A DNA stretch of 64,000 nt. It comes from Nitrosopumilus sp. (GTDB lineage: Archaea; Thermoproteota; Nitrososphaeria; Nitrososphaerales; Nitrosopumilaceae). The position numbers and the translations under genes were made by a program. Shown here piece by piece: positions 36,284 through 61,988 of this stretch (its first letter is position 1; each line of letters opens with the position of its first letter). The DNA lies in contig OZ244651.1 in assembly GCA_965218695.1 (NCBI GenBank), positions 768,001 to 832,000 on the forward strand. The letters run 5' to 3'. Under the pieces are notes generated by a model, which made no database searches, was not told the DNA's origin, and saw only the letters and a list, made by a program, of their open reading frames with translations.

Positions 36284-36511
36284 TGCCTGCCGGTTTCATT
36301 TTTGTGGAGGTTTGGCGTCAAGAACTGCCCGGTGTTGATGCCAAGGAATGATTCTGGGACCCAAACACCTGTCAGCGTCTGCATATTCAAGTTCCACTCA
36401 TGTACGAGTATGGATGGTTTTGCAGACAGCCGTATCTGGTGCATCATGTTGCCATACGTGTACAAAATGGATTCCCTTTGATCATGGGTAACTGGCATGT
36501 CCGGCAGTCAG

Positions 36512-56175: not shown

Positions 56176-57003
56176 TCAGGGCAGGCGCAGGCCTGTCAGT
56201 CCTTCATATGCCAGGGTGTAGCGCCGTGTCATCTTTGCGACAATTTCAGGGGAAATCTCAGGTGCGACAGGCTCTGCTCCTGCGGCACGGGCATCCTCAA
56301 ACTGCTTTTGATAACCGGCTTCAGTAAGCCAGTCGCGCAGCAGCTGCTTGTCATATGCCTCCTGTATATGGCCCACCTCAAATGAGTCCTTTAGCCACAA
56401 CCGGTACTCGTCAGGGCCTATCGAGTCCCCAAGGGTGATACGGCCGTCAAGGATCCCAAACTCCAGTTTCAGATCAGCCAGTATGAATCCTGCATCATCT
56501 GCAATCCGGGCCATCTTCTGATAAATTCCGACTGATACCTGCTCAAGGGTGTCATACTGCTCAGGGCTTACCAGGTTCCTTTGGATTGCACCCTCCCTGT
56601 CAACAGGAACATCATGCTCTGATTTTGTGGTGGGGTCAAAGACGGGTACCGGCAGTCTTGATGCAAGTCTGGTGTCTGCGCCGTCAGGGAGTGTCGCGGT
56701 GCCGTTCTTCCATCTGCTGACCAGACTGCCATAAAAGTATCCGCGTACCACACATTCAATTGGAAGCATGTTCATTTTTTTTACGACGATCTCGGTATCT
56801 GACTGGCGTCTTACAAAATGGTTCGGGGTCTCAAGCCTGTCAAACCAAAACTCTGCAAACCTGCACAGCACCTCCCCCTTTCTGGGGATATCCTGTCGAA
56901 ACTTTACATCATACGCAGAGACCCTGTCTGAAAACCTGAAGAGGAGCGTCTCAGCATCCACTTCATAAATGTCCTTTACCTTTCCGCTTGCAAGAAACCT
57001 CAA
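56176..57003 (-). CDS. purC: SAICAR synthetase
   Basis: [43 protein letters not shown]. Confidence 0.96.
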
Positions 57004-57048
57004 ACACCCCTGTTCAGTCAGGGCAGAATTTAACTGATGGTATCAAAA

Positions 57049-58376
57049 GGCTCTGTAAAGTTACGGTGACCCGCGACTTGACTGATCCGCATCGACTAAA
57101 GTATTCGAATCCGGCTTCCCGGATCTAGCCCTCGCCATCGCTTCATCTGCGGACCCGACCGGGCCGAACCACAGCCCACGTGCAAGTATGTTGTTACCTG
57201 CATTCTTGTCCCTGTCTATGGACACGTGGCAGTGTTTGCACCTGACCATCCGGTACGCTTCGGAGTTTGTCTTCCCCCCCCCCACATTCCGCGCACCTTG
57301 ATGACGTGCCTGCCGCCGATACTTTCTTGGTCGGAAGGCCGAGCCTTCTAGCCTTGTATTCAACCATGAATTGCAAAATATGATATCCCCAACTGTTCAA
57401 CTTGGTTCTGGTTTTCCTTGATGCCTTGCCGCCCTTTTTCCATCCCTCTTTCATGTCCGTCAAATCCTCCATGACGATTCCCGGGTTCCGCGAGATGATC
57501 TCGTTTGCTGCCGCGTGCATGAGGGGCGCGGTCCTGTCTTTTTCTTTCTTGCCGTATTTGCCTGCGATCTCTTTTCTTATCCTGTGGTCGTTGCGCGTAA
57601 GATGGCCCACCTTCTCCCTGCATTTGGTGCGGACATGCCTGACTTTGGCCATGCCGGTCACTTTGACGTTACATTGGTTGTCGTACGTGGTGATGTTGTC
57701 CAAATTCAGATCCATTCCGAGCCATCCATCGGGAACCGTTTGTTCAACGGTCTCCGAGTATGGCACGATCAGCCTGTCCTTGGTCAGCGTGATGCCGCCG
57801 AGTTTTTTGCCTTGGATCTTTTCTAGCACGTACGGGGCAAGCCTGATTCGGACATGATTCCCCAACATCATGGGGATTTCAATGAAACCGTCAATGATCT
57901 TGTAGTTCTGATTGTTTATCTTGAGCAATTCCTTTCTGACGTACGGCCGCGTAATCTTTTTGGGCTTTTTGACGGATTGGTTCTTGCGGTTTTTGGGCTT
58001 GGCCTTCCTTGCGGCCTTGCGAAGCACGGTGCGCCAGGACTTCAGCAGTGACGTGCCGGCCTTGATTGCCTCCTGCGTGTGTGTGGCATAGTGTCCTTCC
58101 CGCCTCAATTCGGGATACGCGAGTTCCTGGAACTTTTTGGTTGACGTTATGTTGTGTAGCATTCCGAGCCTGATGGCCTCGTTGGTGTCGTGCCTGAAAT
58201 TCTCAAACGTTTCCTTGATCTCGTCGTGCTTGTCGTGGAACTGCCAGATGCATTCAGTATGTGTCACAGATCATGTGGCCGTTCGCGGCTTTTAAGGGCG
58301 GCAGAGCTCACGACATCCGCATGTGTCCGTGATCGTGCGCTGGTATGGGATTGGGTCCCTGTAACTTTACAGTTCC
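57049..58376 (-). mobile_element. Non-autonomous TIR element carrying only tnpB
   Basis: 24-bp imperfect TIR (57049-57072 / 58353-58376); 8-bp TSD TATCAAAA (57041-57048, 58377-58384). Confidence 0.88.
57061..58267 (-). pseudogene. tnpB: TnpB RNA-guided endonuclease, frameshifted at a G10 tract
   Basis: RuvC-I GMDLN, RuvC-II VMEDL, TSSRCAECG, then in the next frame CKHC..DRDKNA (RuvC-III); removing one G at 57274-57283 gives 401 aa. Confidence 0.9.
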
Positions 58377-58490
58377 TATCAAAAGTAAACGGGGTGTCGG
58401 ACAAACCTTGGATTCAGGATGTTTAGTCTTGCCGGACTGCCCTAAGGAAAGTGCCGAGTAGTTCTGCCACATCGTGTACCGGATGTTGAT

Positions 58491-58733
58491 TTACCAGCGA
58501 TTTTTCAGGTTCCGGCGATAGGTGTATGTGGCATTGTTGCCCCTCACCACGAGGAGCCTGCATACTTTGCAGTTGGAGCACTCCTCGTAAATCTTGTAGT
58601 CGTCGCCGCTCAGGGCAAACCAGCCCGGATTGGACTTTTTGCCCACCCTGCACCGCGTCCACGCGTGATCCTTCTTGGGACAGTCAGGGCAGTCCGACGT
58701 CCATTTGTCTGGCGGCATGTCAGTCATTGGCAT
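58491..58733 (-). CDS. Small Cys-rich hypothetical protein
   Basis: CPDC...CSNC pairs in 80 aa; no family recognised. Confidence 0.45.
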   Translation of the reverse strand: MPMTDMPPDKWTSDCPDCPKKDHAWTRCRVGKKSNPGWFALSGDDYKIYEECSNCKVCRLLVVRGNNATYTYRRNLKNRW

Positions 58734-58811: not shown

Positions 58812-61800
58812 CTAGGGGTGAATGATACCGGCGACGGGAAAGAAGGGAGGTCGGATGCTGATTATCTGCACATTCTCGTCGACCCAGCTTGTAGCCAGCG
58901 CGTAAGGAGAACCGTCGACAACGACGGTTGCGACAGAGATTGCCCTTTTGAGTTCGTCGGAAACTTTTCCATCATACACAATCGCAACCTGCCGGGGCGA
59001 GCGGGGATCGAATATGTCAATTATCTGGACGCCGTGATCGAGGATGGACGCGACTAGAACGTAGGCAGCGTCGCTAGTCGTAATGGCTGCAACAGACATA
59101 GCCCCGGCGAGTTTGCGAAAAGATATTCCGTCAGTCATGGATGCGGCCGGTTCCGGGGAGTGAGGATCAGATATGTCTATAATCTGGACGCCGTGATCGA
59201 GGATGGACGCGACTATCGCGTACGTGGAGTTGCCAATCACGGCAGAATCTATCGAGATTGCCCCGGCTAGCCTGTCAAAGAGGATTCCGTCTGACACGGA
59301 TGCGGTAGGCTCGGGAGAATGTGGGTCGGATATGTCGATTATCTGGACGCCGTTGTCTGCAACCGACGCGACCAGCGCGTACGTGGAGTCGCCAATCACG
59401 GCAGTAGTTATGGACCGTGCCCCGCCAAGCCTGTCAAAACCGGCCTCATCTGTAACAGTGTCGTCCCGTATGGATGCGACAGGCACAGGAGAATGTGGGT
59501 CGGATATGTCGATTATCTGGATTCCGTCGTCATTCCAGCCTGCGGCCAGCGCGTACGTGGAGTCGCCAACCCGAACGGTTGCCACGGAGATGGTCCCGTC
59601 CAGTTCGTCAAAGACTTTATCATCTGTCCCGTCAAAGACTTCCCCGTCGCGCACGAATGCGACCGGCTCGGGTATTGCAGGATCAGACATATCGATTATC
59701 CACATGCCATTATCCGTAATAGACGCGACCAGCGCGTACGTGGAACCGGCAATCACGGCAGTGGACATGGAGGTCACCCCAGTCAGGCCGTCAAGCATAT
59801 TCTTGCCGTACACGGGAACTACCGGCACGGGAGAGGCAGGGTCAGATATGTCAATGACTCTGATGCCCAGGTCTGCCACCGACGCGATCAGCGCGTACGT
59901 GGAATTGCCAACCCGGGCGGTTGTCACGGAATTTGTCTCGGCCATTCTGTCAAAGACTGTTTTGTCAGATATTGAACCCACCGGTCTCGGATAGTATGGA
60001 TTGAATATGTTGATTATCTGGATTTCGTCGTCAATCCAGCTGCCGGCTAGCACGTAGGATCTGCCGTTGAACCATGTGGTGACAACGGAGGTTGTACCGG
60101 CAAGCCCGTCAAAGACGGCCCCGTCAAACATGGATGCGGCCAGTTCTGGGGAATGGGGGTCTGACAGGCGGATGATTTGTGCCCCGCTGTCTCCAACCGA
60201 CGCTACCACCGCATAAGGCGCGGTATGAATTTGGATAGTGTCTATCGACACCACGCCGGCAAGCCTGTCAAAGACGTCTCCGTCAGACATGGATGCAACC
60301 GGCCGGGGATCTTTGGGTTTTGTGAGGTCGATTATCTGGACTCCGTTGTCTGCAAATGATGCGACCAGTGCGTAGGGCGTATTGTAAATCACGGCAGTGG
60401 TTATCGACACCGCGCCGGCCAGCTCGTCAAAGCCGCCTAGTCCGTCGGATGCAGACGATATGGATATGGGATTTCCAGGGTTGGTGATGTCGATTATCTG
60501 GACGCCGTCGTCTGCCCAGCTTGCGACCAGCGCGTAATGGGAGTCGTCGATGGTGATCGTGGTAATTGATGCTGCGCCGGCTAGCTTGTCAAACGGCTCT
60601 CCGTCAGATATTGATGCGACCGGAGCTGGATCTGTGGGATCTGTGATGTCGATTATCTGGACGCCGTCGTCTGCCCAGCTTGCGACCAGCGCGTAATGGG
60701 AGTCGTCGATGGTGATCGTGGTAATTGATGCTGCGCCGGCTAGCTTGTCAAACGGCTCTCCGTCAGATATTGATGCGACCGGAGCTGGATCTGTGGGATC
60801 TGTGATGTCGATTATCTGGACGCCGTCGTCTGCCCAGCTTGCGACCAGCGCGTAATGGGAGTCGTCGATGGTGATTGTGGCAATAGAGTTTGCCCCGGAG
60901 AGCTCGTCAAAGTCCGCCCCGTCTGATATGGATGCGACCGGCACCGGATTGTGGGGGTTTGATATGTCAGATATCCGTACTTCGTTGTTGGTAACTGATG
61001 CTGTCAGGGAGTAGGTGGACTCACCAATTGAAACCGTCGTCATGGAATTTGCCCCCACTAGTTTGTCAAAAGATATTTTGTCATGCAGTGATGCGGCCGG
61101 TGCGGGATCTGTGGGATCAGTAATGTCGATTATCTGGATGCCATCGTCAATCCAGCTTGCAGTCAGCGCGTATGGGTGGCCGGTAATTCGAACTGCTGCC
61201 ACAGACATCACCCCGGAGAGCTCGTCAAAGTCCTCCCCGTCTGATATGGATGCGGCAGGTACCGGATTGTGGGGATCGGATATGTCGATTATCTGCACGC
61301 CGCTGTCGGCAACGGATGCTACCAGGGCGTAAGGCGTCTTGTCGATCCAGATAGTGGTAATGGAGTTTGCCCCGGAGAGCTCGTCAAAGTCCTCCCCGTC
61401 TGATATGGATGCGGCAGGTACCGGATTGTGGGGATCGGATATGTCGATTATCTGCACGCCGTTGTCGGCAACGGATGCTACCAGGGCGTAAGGCGTCTTG
61501 TCGATCCAGATAGTGGTAATGGAGTTTGCCCCGGAGAGCTCGTCAAAGTCCTCCCCGTCTGATATGGATGCGGCCGGCACGGGGAAGGCAGGGTCGGATA
61601 TGTCGATTATCTGCACGCCGCTGTCGGCAACGGATGCTACCAGGGCGTAGAGGGAATCGCGGATTTGGACGGTTGTGATTGAACGCGCCCCTGCAAGTTC
61701 GTCAAAGGTAGCCACAATGGGCACGTGGTCAAACCTATCACCGCCGGTGATATTCCATTTGCCACGTTCGTCAAAAACCATTCCATCAGACACGGACGCG

Positions 61801-61988
61801 ACCGACTTGGGGGAGGCAGGATCTGTTATGTTGATTATCTGGATGCCATTATCTGCAACGGACGCGACCAGCGCGTAAAGGGAGCCGTCAAGCCAGGCAG
61901 TTGTGATAGATATTGCCCCGTCAAGCCTGTCAAATTCCCTCCCGTCGGATATGGACGCTACCGGCTTGGGGGAGACAGGGCGGGACAT
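58812..61988 (-). CDS. LVIVD-repeat beta-propeller protein (about 20 repeats of about 53 aa)
   Basis: Repeated YALVAS..D.GVQIIDISDP..P.PVASISDG; near-identical 159-bp DNA units at 60484/60643/60802 and 61211/61370/61529. Confidence 0.9.
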   Translation of the reverse strand: MSRPVSPKPVASISDGREFDRLDGAISITTAWLDGSLYALVASVADNGIQIINITDPASPKSVASVSDGMVFDERGKWNITGGDRFDHVPIVATFDELAGARSITTVQIRDSLYALVASVADSGVQIIDISDPAFPVPAASISDGEDFDELSGANSITTIWIDKTPYALVASVADNGVQIIDISDPHNPVPAASISDGEDFDELSGANSITTIWIDKTPYALVASVADSGVQIIDISDPHNPVPAASISDGEDFDELSGVMSVAAVRITGHPYALTASWIDDGIQIIDITDPTDPAPAASLHDKISFDKLVGANSMTTVSIGESTYSLTASVTNNEVRISDISNPHNPVPVASISDGADFDELSGANSIATITIDDSHYALVASWADDGVQIIDITDPTDPAPVASISDGEPFDKLAGAASITTITIDDSHYALVASWADDGVQIIDITDPTDPAPVASISDGEPFDKLAGAASITTITIDDSHYALVASWADDGVQIIDITNPGNPISISSASDGLGGFDELAGAVSITTAVIYNTPYALVASFADNGVQIIDLTKPKDPRPVASMSDGDVFDRLAGVVSIDTIQIHTAPYAVVASVGDSGAQIIRLSDPHSPELAASMFDGAVFDGLAGTTSVVTTWFNGRSYVLAGSWIDDEIQIINIFNPYYPRPVGSISDKTVFDRMAETNSVTTARVGNSTYALIASVADLGIRVIDISDPASPVPVVPVYGKNMLDGLTGVTSMSTAVIAGSTYALVASITDNGMWIIDMSDPAIPEPVAFVRDGEVFDGTDDKVFDELDGTISVATVRVGDSTYALAAGWNDDGIQIIDISDPHSPVPVASIRDDTVTDEAGFDRLGGARSITTAVIGDSTYALVASVADNGVQIIDISDPHSPEPTASVSDGILFDRLAGAISIDSAVIGNSTYAIVASILDHGVQIIDISDPHSPEPAASMTDGISFRKLAGAMSVAAITTSDAAYVLVASILDHGVQIIDIFDPRSPRQVAIVYDGKVSDELKRAISVATVVVDGSPYALATSWVDENVQIISIRPPFFPVAGIIHP

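What the first reader, a model, noticed from the sequence alone, without database searches (positions are those of the whole stretch)
57041..58390. tnpB carried by a DDE-type (TIR plus 8-bp TSD) non-autonomous element, with a self-consistent TAM/guide layout
Seen: tnpB is the only gene between 24-bp imperfect TIRs (GGCTCTGTAAAGTTACGGTGACCC vs GGAACTGTAAAGTTACAGGGACCC), flanked by an exact 8-bp duplication TATCAAAA. Known: canonical tnpB hosts (IS200/IS605, IS607) have neither TIRs nor TSDs, while GG..CTGT ends with 8-bp TSDs resemble IS6-type DDE elements; the TnpB omegaRNA overlaps the gene 3' end and takes its guide from the flank. Inference: the guide would be TTTTGATACCATCAGTTAAA (TSD plus flank). 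The reconstructed empty site reads TTTAC|TTTTGATACCATC, so a TAM-like TTTAC abuts the protospacer. In the occupied allele one junction has the TAM but only an 8-nt match, and the other has the full match but no TAM. This suggests an RNA-guided homing unit mobilised in trans by a DDE transposase. Some TnpB-DDE associations have been reported, so novelty needs checking.
Basis: partly seen in the sequence, partly recalled or inferred. Interest (0 to 1): 0.85.

Follow-up and report, generated by a model that had tools for sequence, protein, structure and literature searches.

The report
TnpB gene riding IS6-type transposon ends
A small mobile element in an ammonia-oxidising archaeon carries only an RNA-guided nuclease gene (tnpB) but has the inverted ends and 8-base target duplication of IS6-type transposons, and across its family a short T-rich word sits on one side only, where the nuclease's recognition motif should be.

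Summary
The window holds a 1,328-bp tnpB-only element. It has 24-bp imperfect inverted ends (57049-57072 and 58354-58377) and an exact 8-bp duplication, TATCAAAA. Two relatives carry the empty site with a single 8-mer.

The window copy is frameshifted. Two sister copies in the genome have an open 406-407 aa frame.

The ends are IS6-like. Autonomous elements in related genomes encode IS6-type DDE transposases and share the same end type and 8-bp duplications. The inner ends of 14 of 35 tnpB elements match a sampled autonomous element at 13 or more of 16 bases.

A covarying RNA-type structure runs from the tnpB 3' end to 6 nt from the element tip. A guide would therefore be the duplication plus the flank.

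However, 25 of 35 independent insertions carry T[A/G] directly upstream of the duplication on the tnpB 5' side. The mirror side has it in 4 of 35, and autonomous IS6-like elements in 3 of 35 sides.

No RNA, cleavage or transposition was shown.

DDE-associated TnpBs are in print (PNAS 2023). This scan has noted similar elements on other DNA, including a one-sided word. I rate this a new variant of a known kind.

The parts
57041..57048 (.). Target-site duplication, copy next to the tnpB 3' end (TATCAAAA). Read on the minus strand, it would form the first 8 nt of the predicted guide.
   Evidence: A single copy is present in the empty sites of G002 and G018.
57029..57048 (-). Predicted guide template: the TSD plus 12 nt of flank, read on the minus strand. 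This is an inference.
   Evidence: It follows from the scaffold ending at the element tip. No RNA data support it (one search was inconclusive).
57049..57072 (-). Inverted end at the tnpB 3' side (right end in tnpB orientation). It holds the tnpB stop codon (57061-57063). Its inner part forms the 3' arm of a terminal hairpin.
57049..57154 (-). Core of a candidate omega-RNA scaffold. It has a closing stem (5' arm at 57148-57154), inner hairpins, a terminal hairpin that uses the inverted end, and a 6-nt single-stranded tail ending at 57049. Its 5' limit is unknown.
   Evidence: The minimum-energy fold of the window copy has this architecture. The architecture is supported by covariation in 15 relatives, not including the window copy. 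The mapping onto the window copy is by eye.
57061..58267 (-). tnpB, frameshifted in this copy. The frames are 57194-58267 and 57061-57363.
   Evidence: The intact 406-aa sister (copy C) scores 121.6 bits on NF040570 against a cut-off of 100. D/E/D and C4 residues are conserved in the family.
57274..57283 (.). C10 run (G10 on the coding strand) that holds the 4 extra bases which break the frame.
   Evidence: Comparison of copy A with copy C. Run X3 holds a contig that lacks 4 bases here (table 4).
58354..58377 (-). Inverted end at the tnpB 5' side (left end in tnpB orientation).
58378..58385 (.). Target-site duplication, copy next to the tnpB 5' end.
58386..58390 (-). The position where a TAM would lie. 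It reads TTTAC on the minus strand. Only TA[C/T] is shared with copies B and C; the family consensus is T-T-R.

Best explanation
This is one copy, itself probably dead, of a family of about 1.25-1.45-kb transposase-less elements found in this class of archaea. Their only gene is a typical TnpB with the DRD motif.

The elements move as IS6-type DDE transposons. A transposase encoded elsewhere recognises the 20-24-bp inverted ends (GGnnCTGT...) and inserts them with an 8-bp staggered cut.

The last 110-170 nt of the element overlap the end of the tnpB frame and the inner part of the right inverted end. This stretch folds into a conserved RNA scaffold that stops 6 nt before the tip. Read-through transcription would therefore give a guide made of the 8-bp duplication plus the adjoining flank.

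The unoccupied site reads flank, TTR-like motif, 8-mer, flank. This is the ancestral allele, and it would also be the product of a precise loss between the two 8-mers. It is then the only perfect target. In the occupied site, the junction with the motif matches only 8 nt, and the junction with the full match is preceded by ...ACC of the end.

TnpB would thus cut empty or emptied alleles, and recombination with an occupied copy would restore the element. Insertions that happened to land beside the motif are the ones that persist.

Shown here: the ends, the duplication, the empty sites, the end types shared with IS6-like elements, the covarying structure, and the one-sided motif. Inferred: mobilisation in trans, the RNA itself, the guide, cleavage, and homing or anti-loss as the selective force.
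For: 1. Ends and TSD. Empty sites. Sister copies with their own TSDs. A 44%-identical paralogue with inverted ends of about 50 bp and the exact TSD TGAATTAT.

2. The same architecture holds in relatives. I collected 35 independent tnpB-only insertions with a TSD of at least 7/8, from 19 published genomes (G000 and 18 relatives).

3. Autonomous partners. In 26 of 40 fetched IS6-like transposase loci there are GGnnCTGT-type ends and 8/8 TSDs. One transposase reaches the NCBIfam IS6 equivalog cut-off, at 125.9 against 125 bits, over model positions 1-199 of 202. Pfam DDE_Tnp_IS240 scores 46-69 bits for three of the four transposases scanned and 25.1 bits, under the 27-bit cut-off, for the six-copy element's. 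The inner 16 nt of the ends match a sampled IS6-like end at 13 or more of 16 positions in 14 of 35 tnpB elements; 200 shuffles gave a mean of 0.02 and a maximum of 2. The best pairs reach 15 of 16.

4. No IS1595-type DDE was found in the window's genome (0 matches). Ten full-length IS6-like matches are present.

5. Structure. On 15 relatives, 20 pairs form three helices and 93.8% of cells are paired. Twelve pairs show compensatory changes. None of 500 shuffles reached this on any of five measures, and slid controls gave at most 46.6% pairing. Many pairs are G-U, which fits the sense-strand RNA. A local hairpin that uses the inner inverted end is found at the right end in 25 of 28 elements and at the left end in 1 of 28 (my count with the criterion of at least 8 of 14 positions paired and span of at most 60).

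6. One-sided motif. In the set of 28: T at -3 in 20, T at -2 in 21, a purine at -1 in 20, and a pyrimidine at TSD position 1 in 23. T[AG] at -2/-1 occurs in 19 of 28 against an expected fraction of 0.165 (p = 2e-9); the mirror side has it in 4 of 28. With the 7 elements first left out, the count is 25 of 35 against 4 of 35. Autonomous IS6-like elements show it at 2 of 16 and 1 of 19 sides.

7. TnpB looks active. The catalytic D is kept in 28 of 28, E in 26 of 28 and D in 26 of 28, and the four zinc-finger cysteines in 24 to 27 of 28.
Against: - No RNA evidence. Rfam gave only two chance-level hits (E = 7.3). The one RNA run held only contigs, which cannot show ends or strand.
- No autonomous element with the exact ends of the window's subfamily was found. 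The best in-genome candidate (ends at C4:2474 and C6:290) shares 17 of 24 bases (my count by eye), and the best sampled foreign end shares 11 of 16 inner bases.
- The three copies of the window's subfamily do not carry T-T-R at -3..-1. They read TAC, TAT and TAC, so their motif is offset or different.
- I defined the T[AG] rule after seeing the first 28 rows. Only the 7 later rows, of which 6 fit, are a true hold-out.
- IS6-family transposition is classically replicative, without excision (recalled). The selective benefit of a homing nuclease is therefore less obvious than for IS605.
- IS6-like transposases were found in 42 of 62 genomes with a TnpB match and in 152 of 339 without (my tally). 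Three genomes with fresh TIR/TSD tnpB insertions (G263, G284, G022; all fragmented drafts) showed none.
- The window copy is frameshifted.
Confidence: 0.65

Rival explanations
1. The one-sided T-T-R word is an asymmetric target preference of the particular transposase or transpososome that moves the tnpB elements. It is not a TAM. TnpB is a passenger with no link to the insertion site.
For: DDE elements often have target preferences. The sampled IS6-like elements reuse certain sites: the same 8-mer and flanks are occupied by different elements in several genomes. The actual transposase for each tnpB subfamily is not identified.
Against: The 26 autonomous elements with the same end type show T[AG] at 2 of 16 and 1 of 19 informative sides, which is background level. 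DDE target preferences are usually symmetric (recalled), whereas here the mirror side has 4 of 35. The motif variant differs between tnpB subfamilies within one genome, for example TAT against TTG in G232 and TAY against ATA in the window's genome.
Confidence: 0.15
2. TnpB takes part in choosing the insertion site. Bound to the right-end RNA or DNA, it recognises the T-T-R motif in target DNA and positions the DDE transpososome, so that the left end lands 8 bp downstream of the motif. This would be TAM-directed, orientation-specific integration.
For: The motif lies at a fixed distance and on a fixed side relative to tnpB. It is absent from tnpB-less partners.
Against: There is no precedent for nuclease-active TnpB doing this. 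Catalytic residues are conserved, which fits cleavage better than recruitment alone. Selection after random insertion explains the same data with known biochemistry.
Confidence: 0.07
3. The partner transposase belongs to the IS1595 family, which also makes 8-bp duplications and has GG ends, as earlier notes of this scan concluded for other tnpB cassettes.
For: The 8-bp TSD and GG ends fit both families (recalled from ISfinder tables). The transposases found here carry an N-terminal zinc-binding domain that NCBIfam calls IS1/IS1595-type, at 20-28 bits around the 28-bit cut-off.
Against: Pfam DDE_Tnp_IS1595 has 0 matches in the window's genome. The DDE cores hit the IS6 equivalog best in all four proteins scanned, and no IS1595 model appears at E <= 0.001. 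Elements that encode these IS6-like proteins carry the matching ends.
Confidence: 0.05
4. It is an ordinary tnpB-only element of the IS200/IS605 (IS1341) group, and the inverted ends and duplication are coincidental.
For: The gene content is the same: tnpB alone. NCBIfam TnpB models match.
Against: Inverted ends plus exact 8-bp duplications recur at 35 independent insertions. Empty sites hold a single 8-mer. The duplicated 8-mers all differ, so there is no fixed target word of the IS605 kind apart from the short T-T-R.
Confidence: 0.01

Closest known systems
DDE-transposase-associated TnpB branches (DDE-1 to DDE-6) and solo TnpBs with the same ends. Source: Altae-Tran et al. 2023, PNAS, PMC10691335; passages read, and one supplementary PDF searched.
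   Same: TnpB sits inside elements with inverted terminal repeats. The TnpB 3' end lies within 250 bp of the element end. Some solo TnpBs share ends with transposase-bearing elements and are proposed to be moved in trans.
   Different: A 2026 review (PMC13565253, passages read) names the DDE partners as ISL2, IS630 and IS1031, not IS6. The PNAS main text describes the branches with these distinct transposase associations as derived forms; the family here has the typical DRDxN motif. I could not see the paper's Additional Files 10 and 11, so I cannot exclude that this clade is among its six branches. The one-sided motif outside a variable TSD is not in the passages I read.
IS6 family insertion sequences and their transposase-less derivatives.
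   Same: Ends start with GG. The duplication is 8 bp. The partner is a DDE_Tnp_IS240-type transposase. Elements sit directly beside one another in arrays, which is reminiscent of IS26 behaviour (recalled).
   Different: The cargo is an RNA-guided nuclease gene. The autonomous relatives are 2.2-4.5 kb with extra ORFs, and their 370-440-aa transposases carry N-terminal zinc-binding modules. That is larger than classical IS6 (recalled: 0.7-0.9 kb). Three of the four transposases scanned fall below the NCBIfam IS6 cut-off.
tnpB-only elements of the IS200/IS605 family (IS1341 group).
   Same: Gene content is the same. A guide RNA scaffold presumably overlaps the tnpB 3' end and reads out of the right end. 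A short motif lies on the 5' side of the element.
   Different: IS200/IS605 elements have no inverted ends and make no duplication (review PMC13565253). Here both are present, so the first 8 nt of the guide would be the duplication.
Fanzor1 in eukaryotic DDE transposons.
   Same: A TnpB-type nuclease is carried by TIR/TSD transposons.
   Different: According to the review passages read, the 5' TSD is part of the TAM and the 3' TSD lies in the RNA scaffold. That suits fixed TSDs such as TA or TTAA. Here the 8-bp TSDs are variable, and the conserved word lies outside them, overlapping at most their first base.
Earlier notes of this scan on other genomes (e1-5531702, e1-2592056, e1-5215140, e1-2486043, e1-3060668). 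These are unchecked AI notes.
   Same: They describe tnpB-only elements with inverted ends and 6-8-bp duplications. One note reports a three-letter word before the duplication at 9 of 9 sites and at 1 of 9 on the mirror side. One note places the inverted end in the guide RNA scaffold.
   Different: Those notes assign IS1595-type or IS630-type ends, or found no partner. Here the partner type is IS6-like, and the control on autonomous partners was run.

Membership tests
TnpB (RNA-guided endonuclease, NCBIfam NF040570) | Profile match above the curated cut-off | tested here: met
   Intact sister copy C scores 121.6 bits against a cut-off of 100, over model positions 61-389 of 389. The window copy matches only as two halves on PF07282.
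TnpB (RNA-guided endonuclease, NCBIfam NF040570) | RuvC D-E-D triad and C4 zinc finger | tested here: met
   In an alignment of 28 family members, D is kept in 28 of 28, E in 26 of 28 and D (DRD) in 26 of 28. The four cysteines are kept in 24-27 of 28. In the window copy the frame breaks between RuvC-II and RuvC-III.
TnpB (RNA-guided endonuclease, NCBIfam NF040570) | Structured guide RNA overlapping the gene's 3' end | tested here: inconclusive
   There is strong covariation for a sense-strand structure. No transcript was shown.
TnpB (RNA-guided endonuclease, NCBIfam NF040570) | RNA-guided, TAM-dependent DNA cleavage | not testable with these tools
   Needs a bench assay.
IS200/IS605 family (IS1341 group) | No terminal inverted repeats and no target-site duplication | tested here: not met
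   There are 24-bp inverted ends and an 8-bp TSD. Empty sites were found. The pattern recurs at 35 insertions.
IS200/IS605 family (IS1341 group) | Mobilised by a Y1 HUH TnpA | not tested
   I did not search the genome for Y1 transposases.
IS6 family (as a transposase-less derivative) | Inverted ends starting with GG and an 8-bp duplication | tested here: met
IS6 family (as a transposase-less derivative) | Ends shared with elements that encode an IS6-type DDE transposase | tested here: met
   Met for the family: 14 of 35 tnpB elements match a sampled IS6-like end at 13 or more of 16 inner bases, and the IS6 equivalog cut-off is reached by one partner. For the window's own subfamily there are only partial matches: 17 of 24 in the genome (by eye) and 11 of 16 abroad.
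IS6 family (as a transposase-less derivative) | Transposition through cointegrates by the IS6 transposase | not testable with these tools
   Needs a transposition assay.
IS1595 family | DDE_Tnp_IS1595 transposase present as a possible partner | tested here: not met
   PF12762 has 0 matches at E <= 0.001 in the window's genome, which is 99.99% complete.
DDE-associated TnpB branches of Altae-Tran et al. 2023 | Inverted terminal repeats, with the TnpB 3' end within 250 bp of the element end | tested here: met
   The stop codon lies 12 nt from the tip.
DDE-associated TnpB branches of Altae-Tran et al. 2023 | Placement in one of the named branches of their tree | not tested
The supplementary PDF holds no DDE-1 to DDE-4 entries.
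Fanzor1-like layout (TSD serves as TAM) | Fixed TSD sequence recognised as part of the TAM | tested here: not met
   All 35 TSDs differ. Only their first base is biased, being a pyrimidine in 26 of 35.

The most novel reading that the evidence does not exclude
In this archaeal family, TnpB and an IS6-type DDE transposon form a working partnership in which the variable 8-bp duplication becomes the seed of the guide. A T-T-R word just outside the duplication acts as the TAM. One of two things then follows. Either only insertions beside a TAM survive, which would be a nuclease-enforced filter and an anti-loss device for a transposon with no fixed target. Or TnpB itself steers the DDE insertion to TAM-flanked sites in a fixed orientation.
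Probability: 0.45. Interest if true: 0.8.

Novelty: new variant of a known kind. Interest (0 to 1): 0.62.

Why it matters
TnpB is understood mainly in IS605 and IS607 elements, whose transposases insert next to a fixed word that doubles as the TAM and excise without a scar. How such a nuclease can serve a DDE transposon that makes variable duplications is an open point. A 2026 review suggests the rarity of such pairs reflects inflexible target recognition (PMC13565253).

This family offers a natural test case with many independent insertions, identifiable partners and a clear, checkable prediction: TAM = T-T-R, and guide = duplication plus flank.

If the prediction holds, it would show that selection by the nuclease, and not the transposase, shapes where such elements are found. 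It would also add compact archaeal TnpBs with a very short TAM to the list of candidates for genome editing.

Tried and rejected
- Rfam scan of 56900-58500 at E <= 10 gave only two chance hits to vertebrate lncRNA models.
- RNA evidence. One metatranscriptome run (X1) held 5% of the words, as contigs only. A 226-nt contig covers the right end of a related copy plus 37 nt of a different flank, but contigs show no ends or strand, and DNA may be present. I draw nothing from it.
- The search for related loci with the single protein on genome contigs returned one irrelevant locus.
- A first search for inverted ends around two paralogues found none. One paralogue (P1) later proved to have ends about 4.6 kb apart because two other elements had invaded it. 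For P2 I found no ends.
- The second end of the in-genome IS6-like gene at C1:1109861-1110985 was not found. The C4 and C6 copies run into contig ends.
- Solo end-like hits at C1:452491 and C1:747074 enclose no recognisable element.
- RNAalifold on a mixed alignment of 22 right ends gave only one 5-pair stem. A more homogeneous set of 15 was needed.
- The idea that the guide is the inverted end itself: the last 6 nt are single-stranded and conserved, the inner end is paired within the scaffold, and the one-sided motif sits next to the TSD. I dropped the idea.
- Nine-bp TSDs belong to a different six-copy IS6-like element in the genome whose ends start GGTTCTCCTGC. It is an unlikely partner.
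- Fourteen of the 40 IS6-like loci gave no convincing ends or TSD with my script and were left out of the control.
- Rows dropped from the motif count: copy C (TSD 6/8); L099, L145, L131 and L074 (TSD shifted or at most 4/8); L095 (2/8); L053, L058 and L063 (TSD at most 5/8); L060 (7/8, found only and not added; it reads TAT); and all loci of unpublished genomes.
Full report
**1. Observation**

The sequence at 57041-58390 is as described.
- TATCAAAA occurs at 57041-57048 and again at 58378-58385.
- Just inside these lie inverted ends at 57049-57072 and 58354-58377. The repeat finder reports 25 nt at 84% complementarity, and by my count 20 of 24 bases match.
- The 12-mer core of the ends occurs exactly twice in the 64-kb window, inverted. 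The expected count is 0.07, and 0 of 100 shuffles gave two.

The only gene inside is tnpB on the minus strand. It is split into frames 57194-58267 and 57061-57363, and both halves hit Pfam PF07282. Compared with an intact sister copy, the window copy has 4 extra bases in a C10 run at 57274-57283. A public run holds a 98.6%-identical contig that lacks 4 bases there (tables 4 and 8). The stop codon (57061-57063) lies inside the inverted end.

**2. The duplication is real**

The window's genome (2.63 Mb, 9 contigs) holds two more full copies at 84-85% DNA identity.
- Copy B (C1:765674-767011) has the exact TSD CATGCAAG.
- Copy C (C1:917932-919267) has a 6/8 TSD and a 2-base deletion in one end.
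- Two 183-bp right-end fragments sit in a duplicated region.
- Both B and C have an open frame of 406-407 aa.

Relatives G002 (flank 93% identical) and G018 carry the uninterrupted site with one copy of the 8-mer. The insertion lies 38 bp upstream of the purC start codon.

**3. A family trait**

A 44%-identical paralogue (P1) has inverted ends of about 50 bp and the exact TSD TGAATTAT. Its ends are 4.6 kb apart because two other transposase-bearing elements have inserted into it. I did not scan those two ORFs against family libraries.

A protein search of 401 genomes of the class found TnpB relatives (E <= 1e-20) in 62. From the fetched loci I collected 35 independent tnpB-only elements of 1.09-1.45 kb (two are longer through secondary insertions). 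They come from 19 published genomes, have GGnnCTGT-type inverted ends and a TSD of at least 7/8, and every TSD is different. Their TnpBs are 28-45% identical to the query. They keep the RuvC D, E and D residues (28, 26 and 26 of 28) and the C4 zinc finger.

**4. The partner**

The genome has no IS1595-type DDE. It has ten full-length matches to the NCBIfam IS6 model at 86-118 bits, all under the 125-bit cut-off. These are proteins of 358-439 aa with N-terminal zinc-binding modules.

In relative G232, a 2,485-bp element with such ends and the TSD TGTTTCGA encodes a 370-aa transposase. That transposase reaches the IS6 equivalog cut-off (125.9 against 125 bits) and scores 69.4 bits on Pfam DDE_Tnp_IS240.

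A search with this protein found relatives in 194 of 401 class genomes. Of 40 loci fetched, 26 showed GGnnCTGT-type ends with 8/8 TSDs, for elements of 2.2-4.5 kb.

The variable inner 16 nt of the ends of tnpB-only elements match a sampled IS6-like end at 13 or more of 16 positions in 14 of 35 cases. The best pairs reach 15 of 16. In 200 shuffles the mean was 0.02 and the maximum 2.

For the window's own subfamily the match is weaker. It is 11 of 16 to sampled foreign ends and 17 of 24 (by eye) to an IS6-like element whose ends lie at the starts of contigs C4 and C6.

IS6-like genes occur in 42 of the 62 TnpB-positive genomes and in 152 of the 339 others (my tally). These genomes are related to one another, so this is descriptive only.

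**5. RNA-type structure**

The last 110-170 nt of the elements are conserved beyond the protein motif. On 15 relatives from 9 genomes (G097, G156, G232, G233, G253, G261, G265, G284, G304 and G371), RNAalifold predicts three helices with 20 pairs, and 12 of the pairs show compensatory double changes. Counting on that structure gives:
- 93.8% of cells paired, against 77.1% in shuffles;
- 41 compensatory cells, against 13.1 in shuffles;
- 0 of 500 shuffles reaching the observed value on any of five measures;
- at most 46.6% pairing when partners are slid by 1-3 columns.

The structure was derived from this same alignment, which favours it. The sequences are also related, so the shuffle count is not a probability.

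Helix 3 pairs an internal segment with positions -14 to -9 of the inverted end. The last 6 nt (AGAACC) stay unpaired. Several pairs are invariant or frequent G-U, which fits an RNA of the tnpB sense strand.

A local hairpin that uses the inner inverted end is predicted at the right end in 25 of 28 elements and at the left end in 1 of 28 (criterion given above). The window copy folds into the same architecture, but it was not part of the covariation set.

**6. The TAM question**

In tnpB orientation, the three copies of the window's subfamily read TTTAC, CCTAT and TATAC before the TSD.

Across 28 insertions the flank on the tnpB 5' side has:
- T at -3 in 20 (p = 9e-5);
- T at -2 in 21 (p = 1e-5);
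- a purine at -1 in 20;
- a pyrimidine at TSD position 1 in 23 (p = 0.002).

No other of the 32 tested positions is below p = 0.04. T[AG] at -2/-1 occurs in 19 of 28 against an expected fraction of 0.165 (p = 2e-9). The mirrored dinucleotide on the other side occurs in 4 of 28.

I set the T[AG] rule after seeing these rows. The 7 elements first left out, because my orientation pattern missed their DRDVIA motif, were then oriented by their longest frame, and 6 of the 7 fit. That gives 25 of 35 against 4 of 35.

Autonomous IS6-like elements with the same end type show the dinucleotide at 2 of 16 and 1 of 19 informative sides. The Fisher test against the tnpB set gives p = 9e-7.

The right-end junction always presents ...ACC, ...GCC or ...ACT in the TAM position.

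**7. Mechanism and its weak points**

The most economical reading has three steps. IS6-type transposases move the elements in trans. A right-end RNA supplies a guide made of TSD plus flank. TnpB then cuts the empty or emptied site when a T-T-R-like word precedes it, so insertions beside that word persist.

The weak points are these.
- No transcript, cleavage or transposition was shown.
- Classical IS6 elements do not excise (recalled), so the benefit would have to come from drive into empty alleles, or from punishing precise loss between the two 8-mers.
- The window's subfamily has an offset motif and no exact partner.

**8. What is known**

Altae-Tran et al. 2023 (PMC10691335; passages read) report six DDE-associated TnpB branches, all with inverted terminal repeats, and solo TnpBs with near-identical ends.

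A 2026 review (PMC13565253; passages read) names the partners as ISL2, IS630 and IS1031. It says that in Fanzor1 the 5' TSD is part of the TAM and the 3' TSD lies in the scaffold.

Three full-text searches gave nothing on this combination:
- 'TnpB' with 'IS6 family' returned 6 unrelated papers.
- 'TnpB' with 'Nitrososphaer' returned 1 unrelated paper.
- 'TnpB', 'TAM', 'target site duplication' and 'DDE' returned 12 papers, none on this.

I saw only listings for those.

This scan has noted tnpB-only TIR/TSD elements before on other DNA. One such note reports a one-sided three-letter word in another archaeal group.

**9. Unpublished genomes**

G155, G250, G297 and G340 contribute 4 of the 22 rows of alignment A2. 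Together with G378 they are part of the 62- and 194-genome tallies. They gave three further TSD examples that I do not count or show. None of the 28-, 35-, 26- or 15-row sets contains them.

Noticed in passing
L064:1464-3407 (genome G352): This TnpB relative is 647 aa long. A block of about 270 aa is inserted between the GTSSK motif and the zinc-finger cysteines. By eye the block carries LAGLIDADG-like motifs, suggesting a homing-endonuclease or intein-like insertion inside a homing nuclease gene. I did not scan it against family libraries.
   Followed up: no
L107 (G232:C1:1779000-1790500): At least four different IS6-like elements lie head to tail, each separated from the next by the same 8-mer, TGTTTCGA. 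In the 26-element sample, 7 have another element's end directly before their TSD and 3 directly after it. This suggests insertion right beside resident ends.
   Followed up: partly
L190, L194, L195, L196, L198 and L107; L216 and L219; L224 and L225: Different IS6-like elements, with different inner ends, occupy the same site in different genomes. One example is the flank TTATAAGAGTAT with the 8-mer TGTTTTAG or a close variant, seen in six genomes of the genus. This points to strong site preference or repeated replacement at a hot spot.
   Followed up: no
G000:C1, six copies (for example near 36432, 685648, 975653, 1286702, 1557610, 2057936): A 1.6-kb IS6-like element present in six copies at about 99.8% identity. 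It encodes a 381-aa transposase, its ends start GGTTCTCCTGC, and it makes 9-bp duplications. One copy sits exactly at the end of a 401-bp MITE-like element that has GGTTCTG ends.
   Followed up: partly
G000:C1:294645-294827 and 1735775-1735957: Two 183-bp fragments of the element's right end (the candidate RNA scaffold) share identical flanks and lie inside a larger duplicated region between transposase-like ORFs. They are cut off by another insertion.
   Followed up: partly
window 57274-57283; run X3: A public run holds a near-identical variant of this element without the 4 extra bases in the C10 run. An in-frame allele therefore exists in nature.
   Followed up: partly
window 56176-57003 and 57041: The element sits 38 bp upstream of the start codon of a SAICAR-synthetase-like gene (purC by eye), that is, in its likely promoter region. 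The effect on expression is unknown.
   Followed up: no
window 58812-61988 (minus strand): A 1,058-aa ORF is made of many repeats of about 45-50 aa, each with a 'GVQIIDISDP'-like motif. It lies next to the element. I did not examine it.
   Followed up: no
G000, whole genome: The load of insertion sequences is very heavy. For example, dozens of copies of an ORF of about 472 aa and of one of about 487 aa gave weak matches in the IS6-model search.
   Followed up: no
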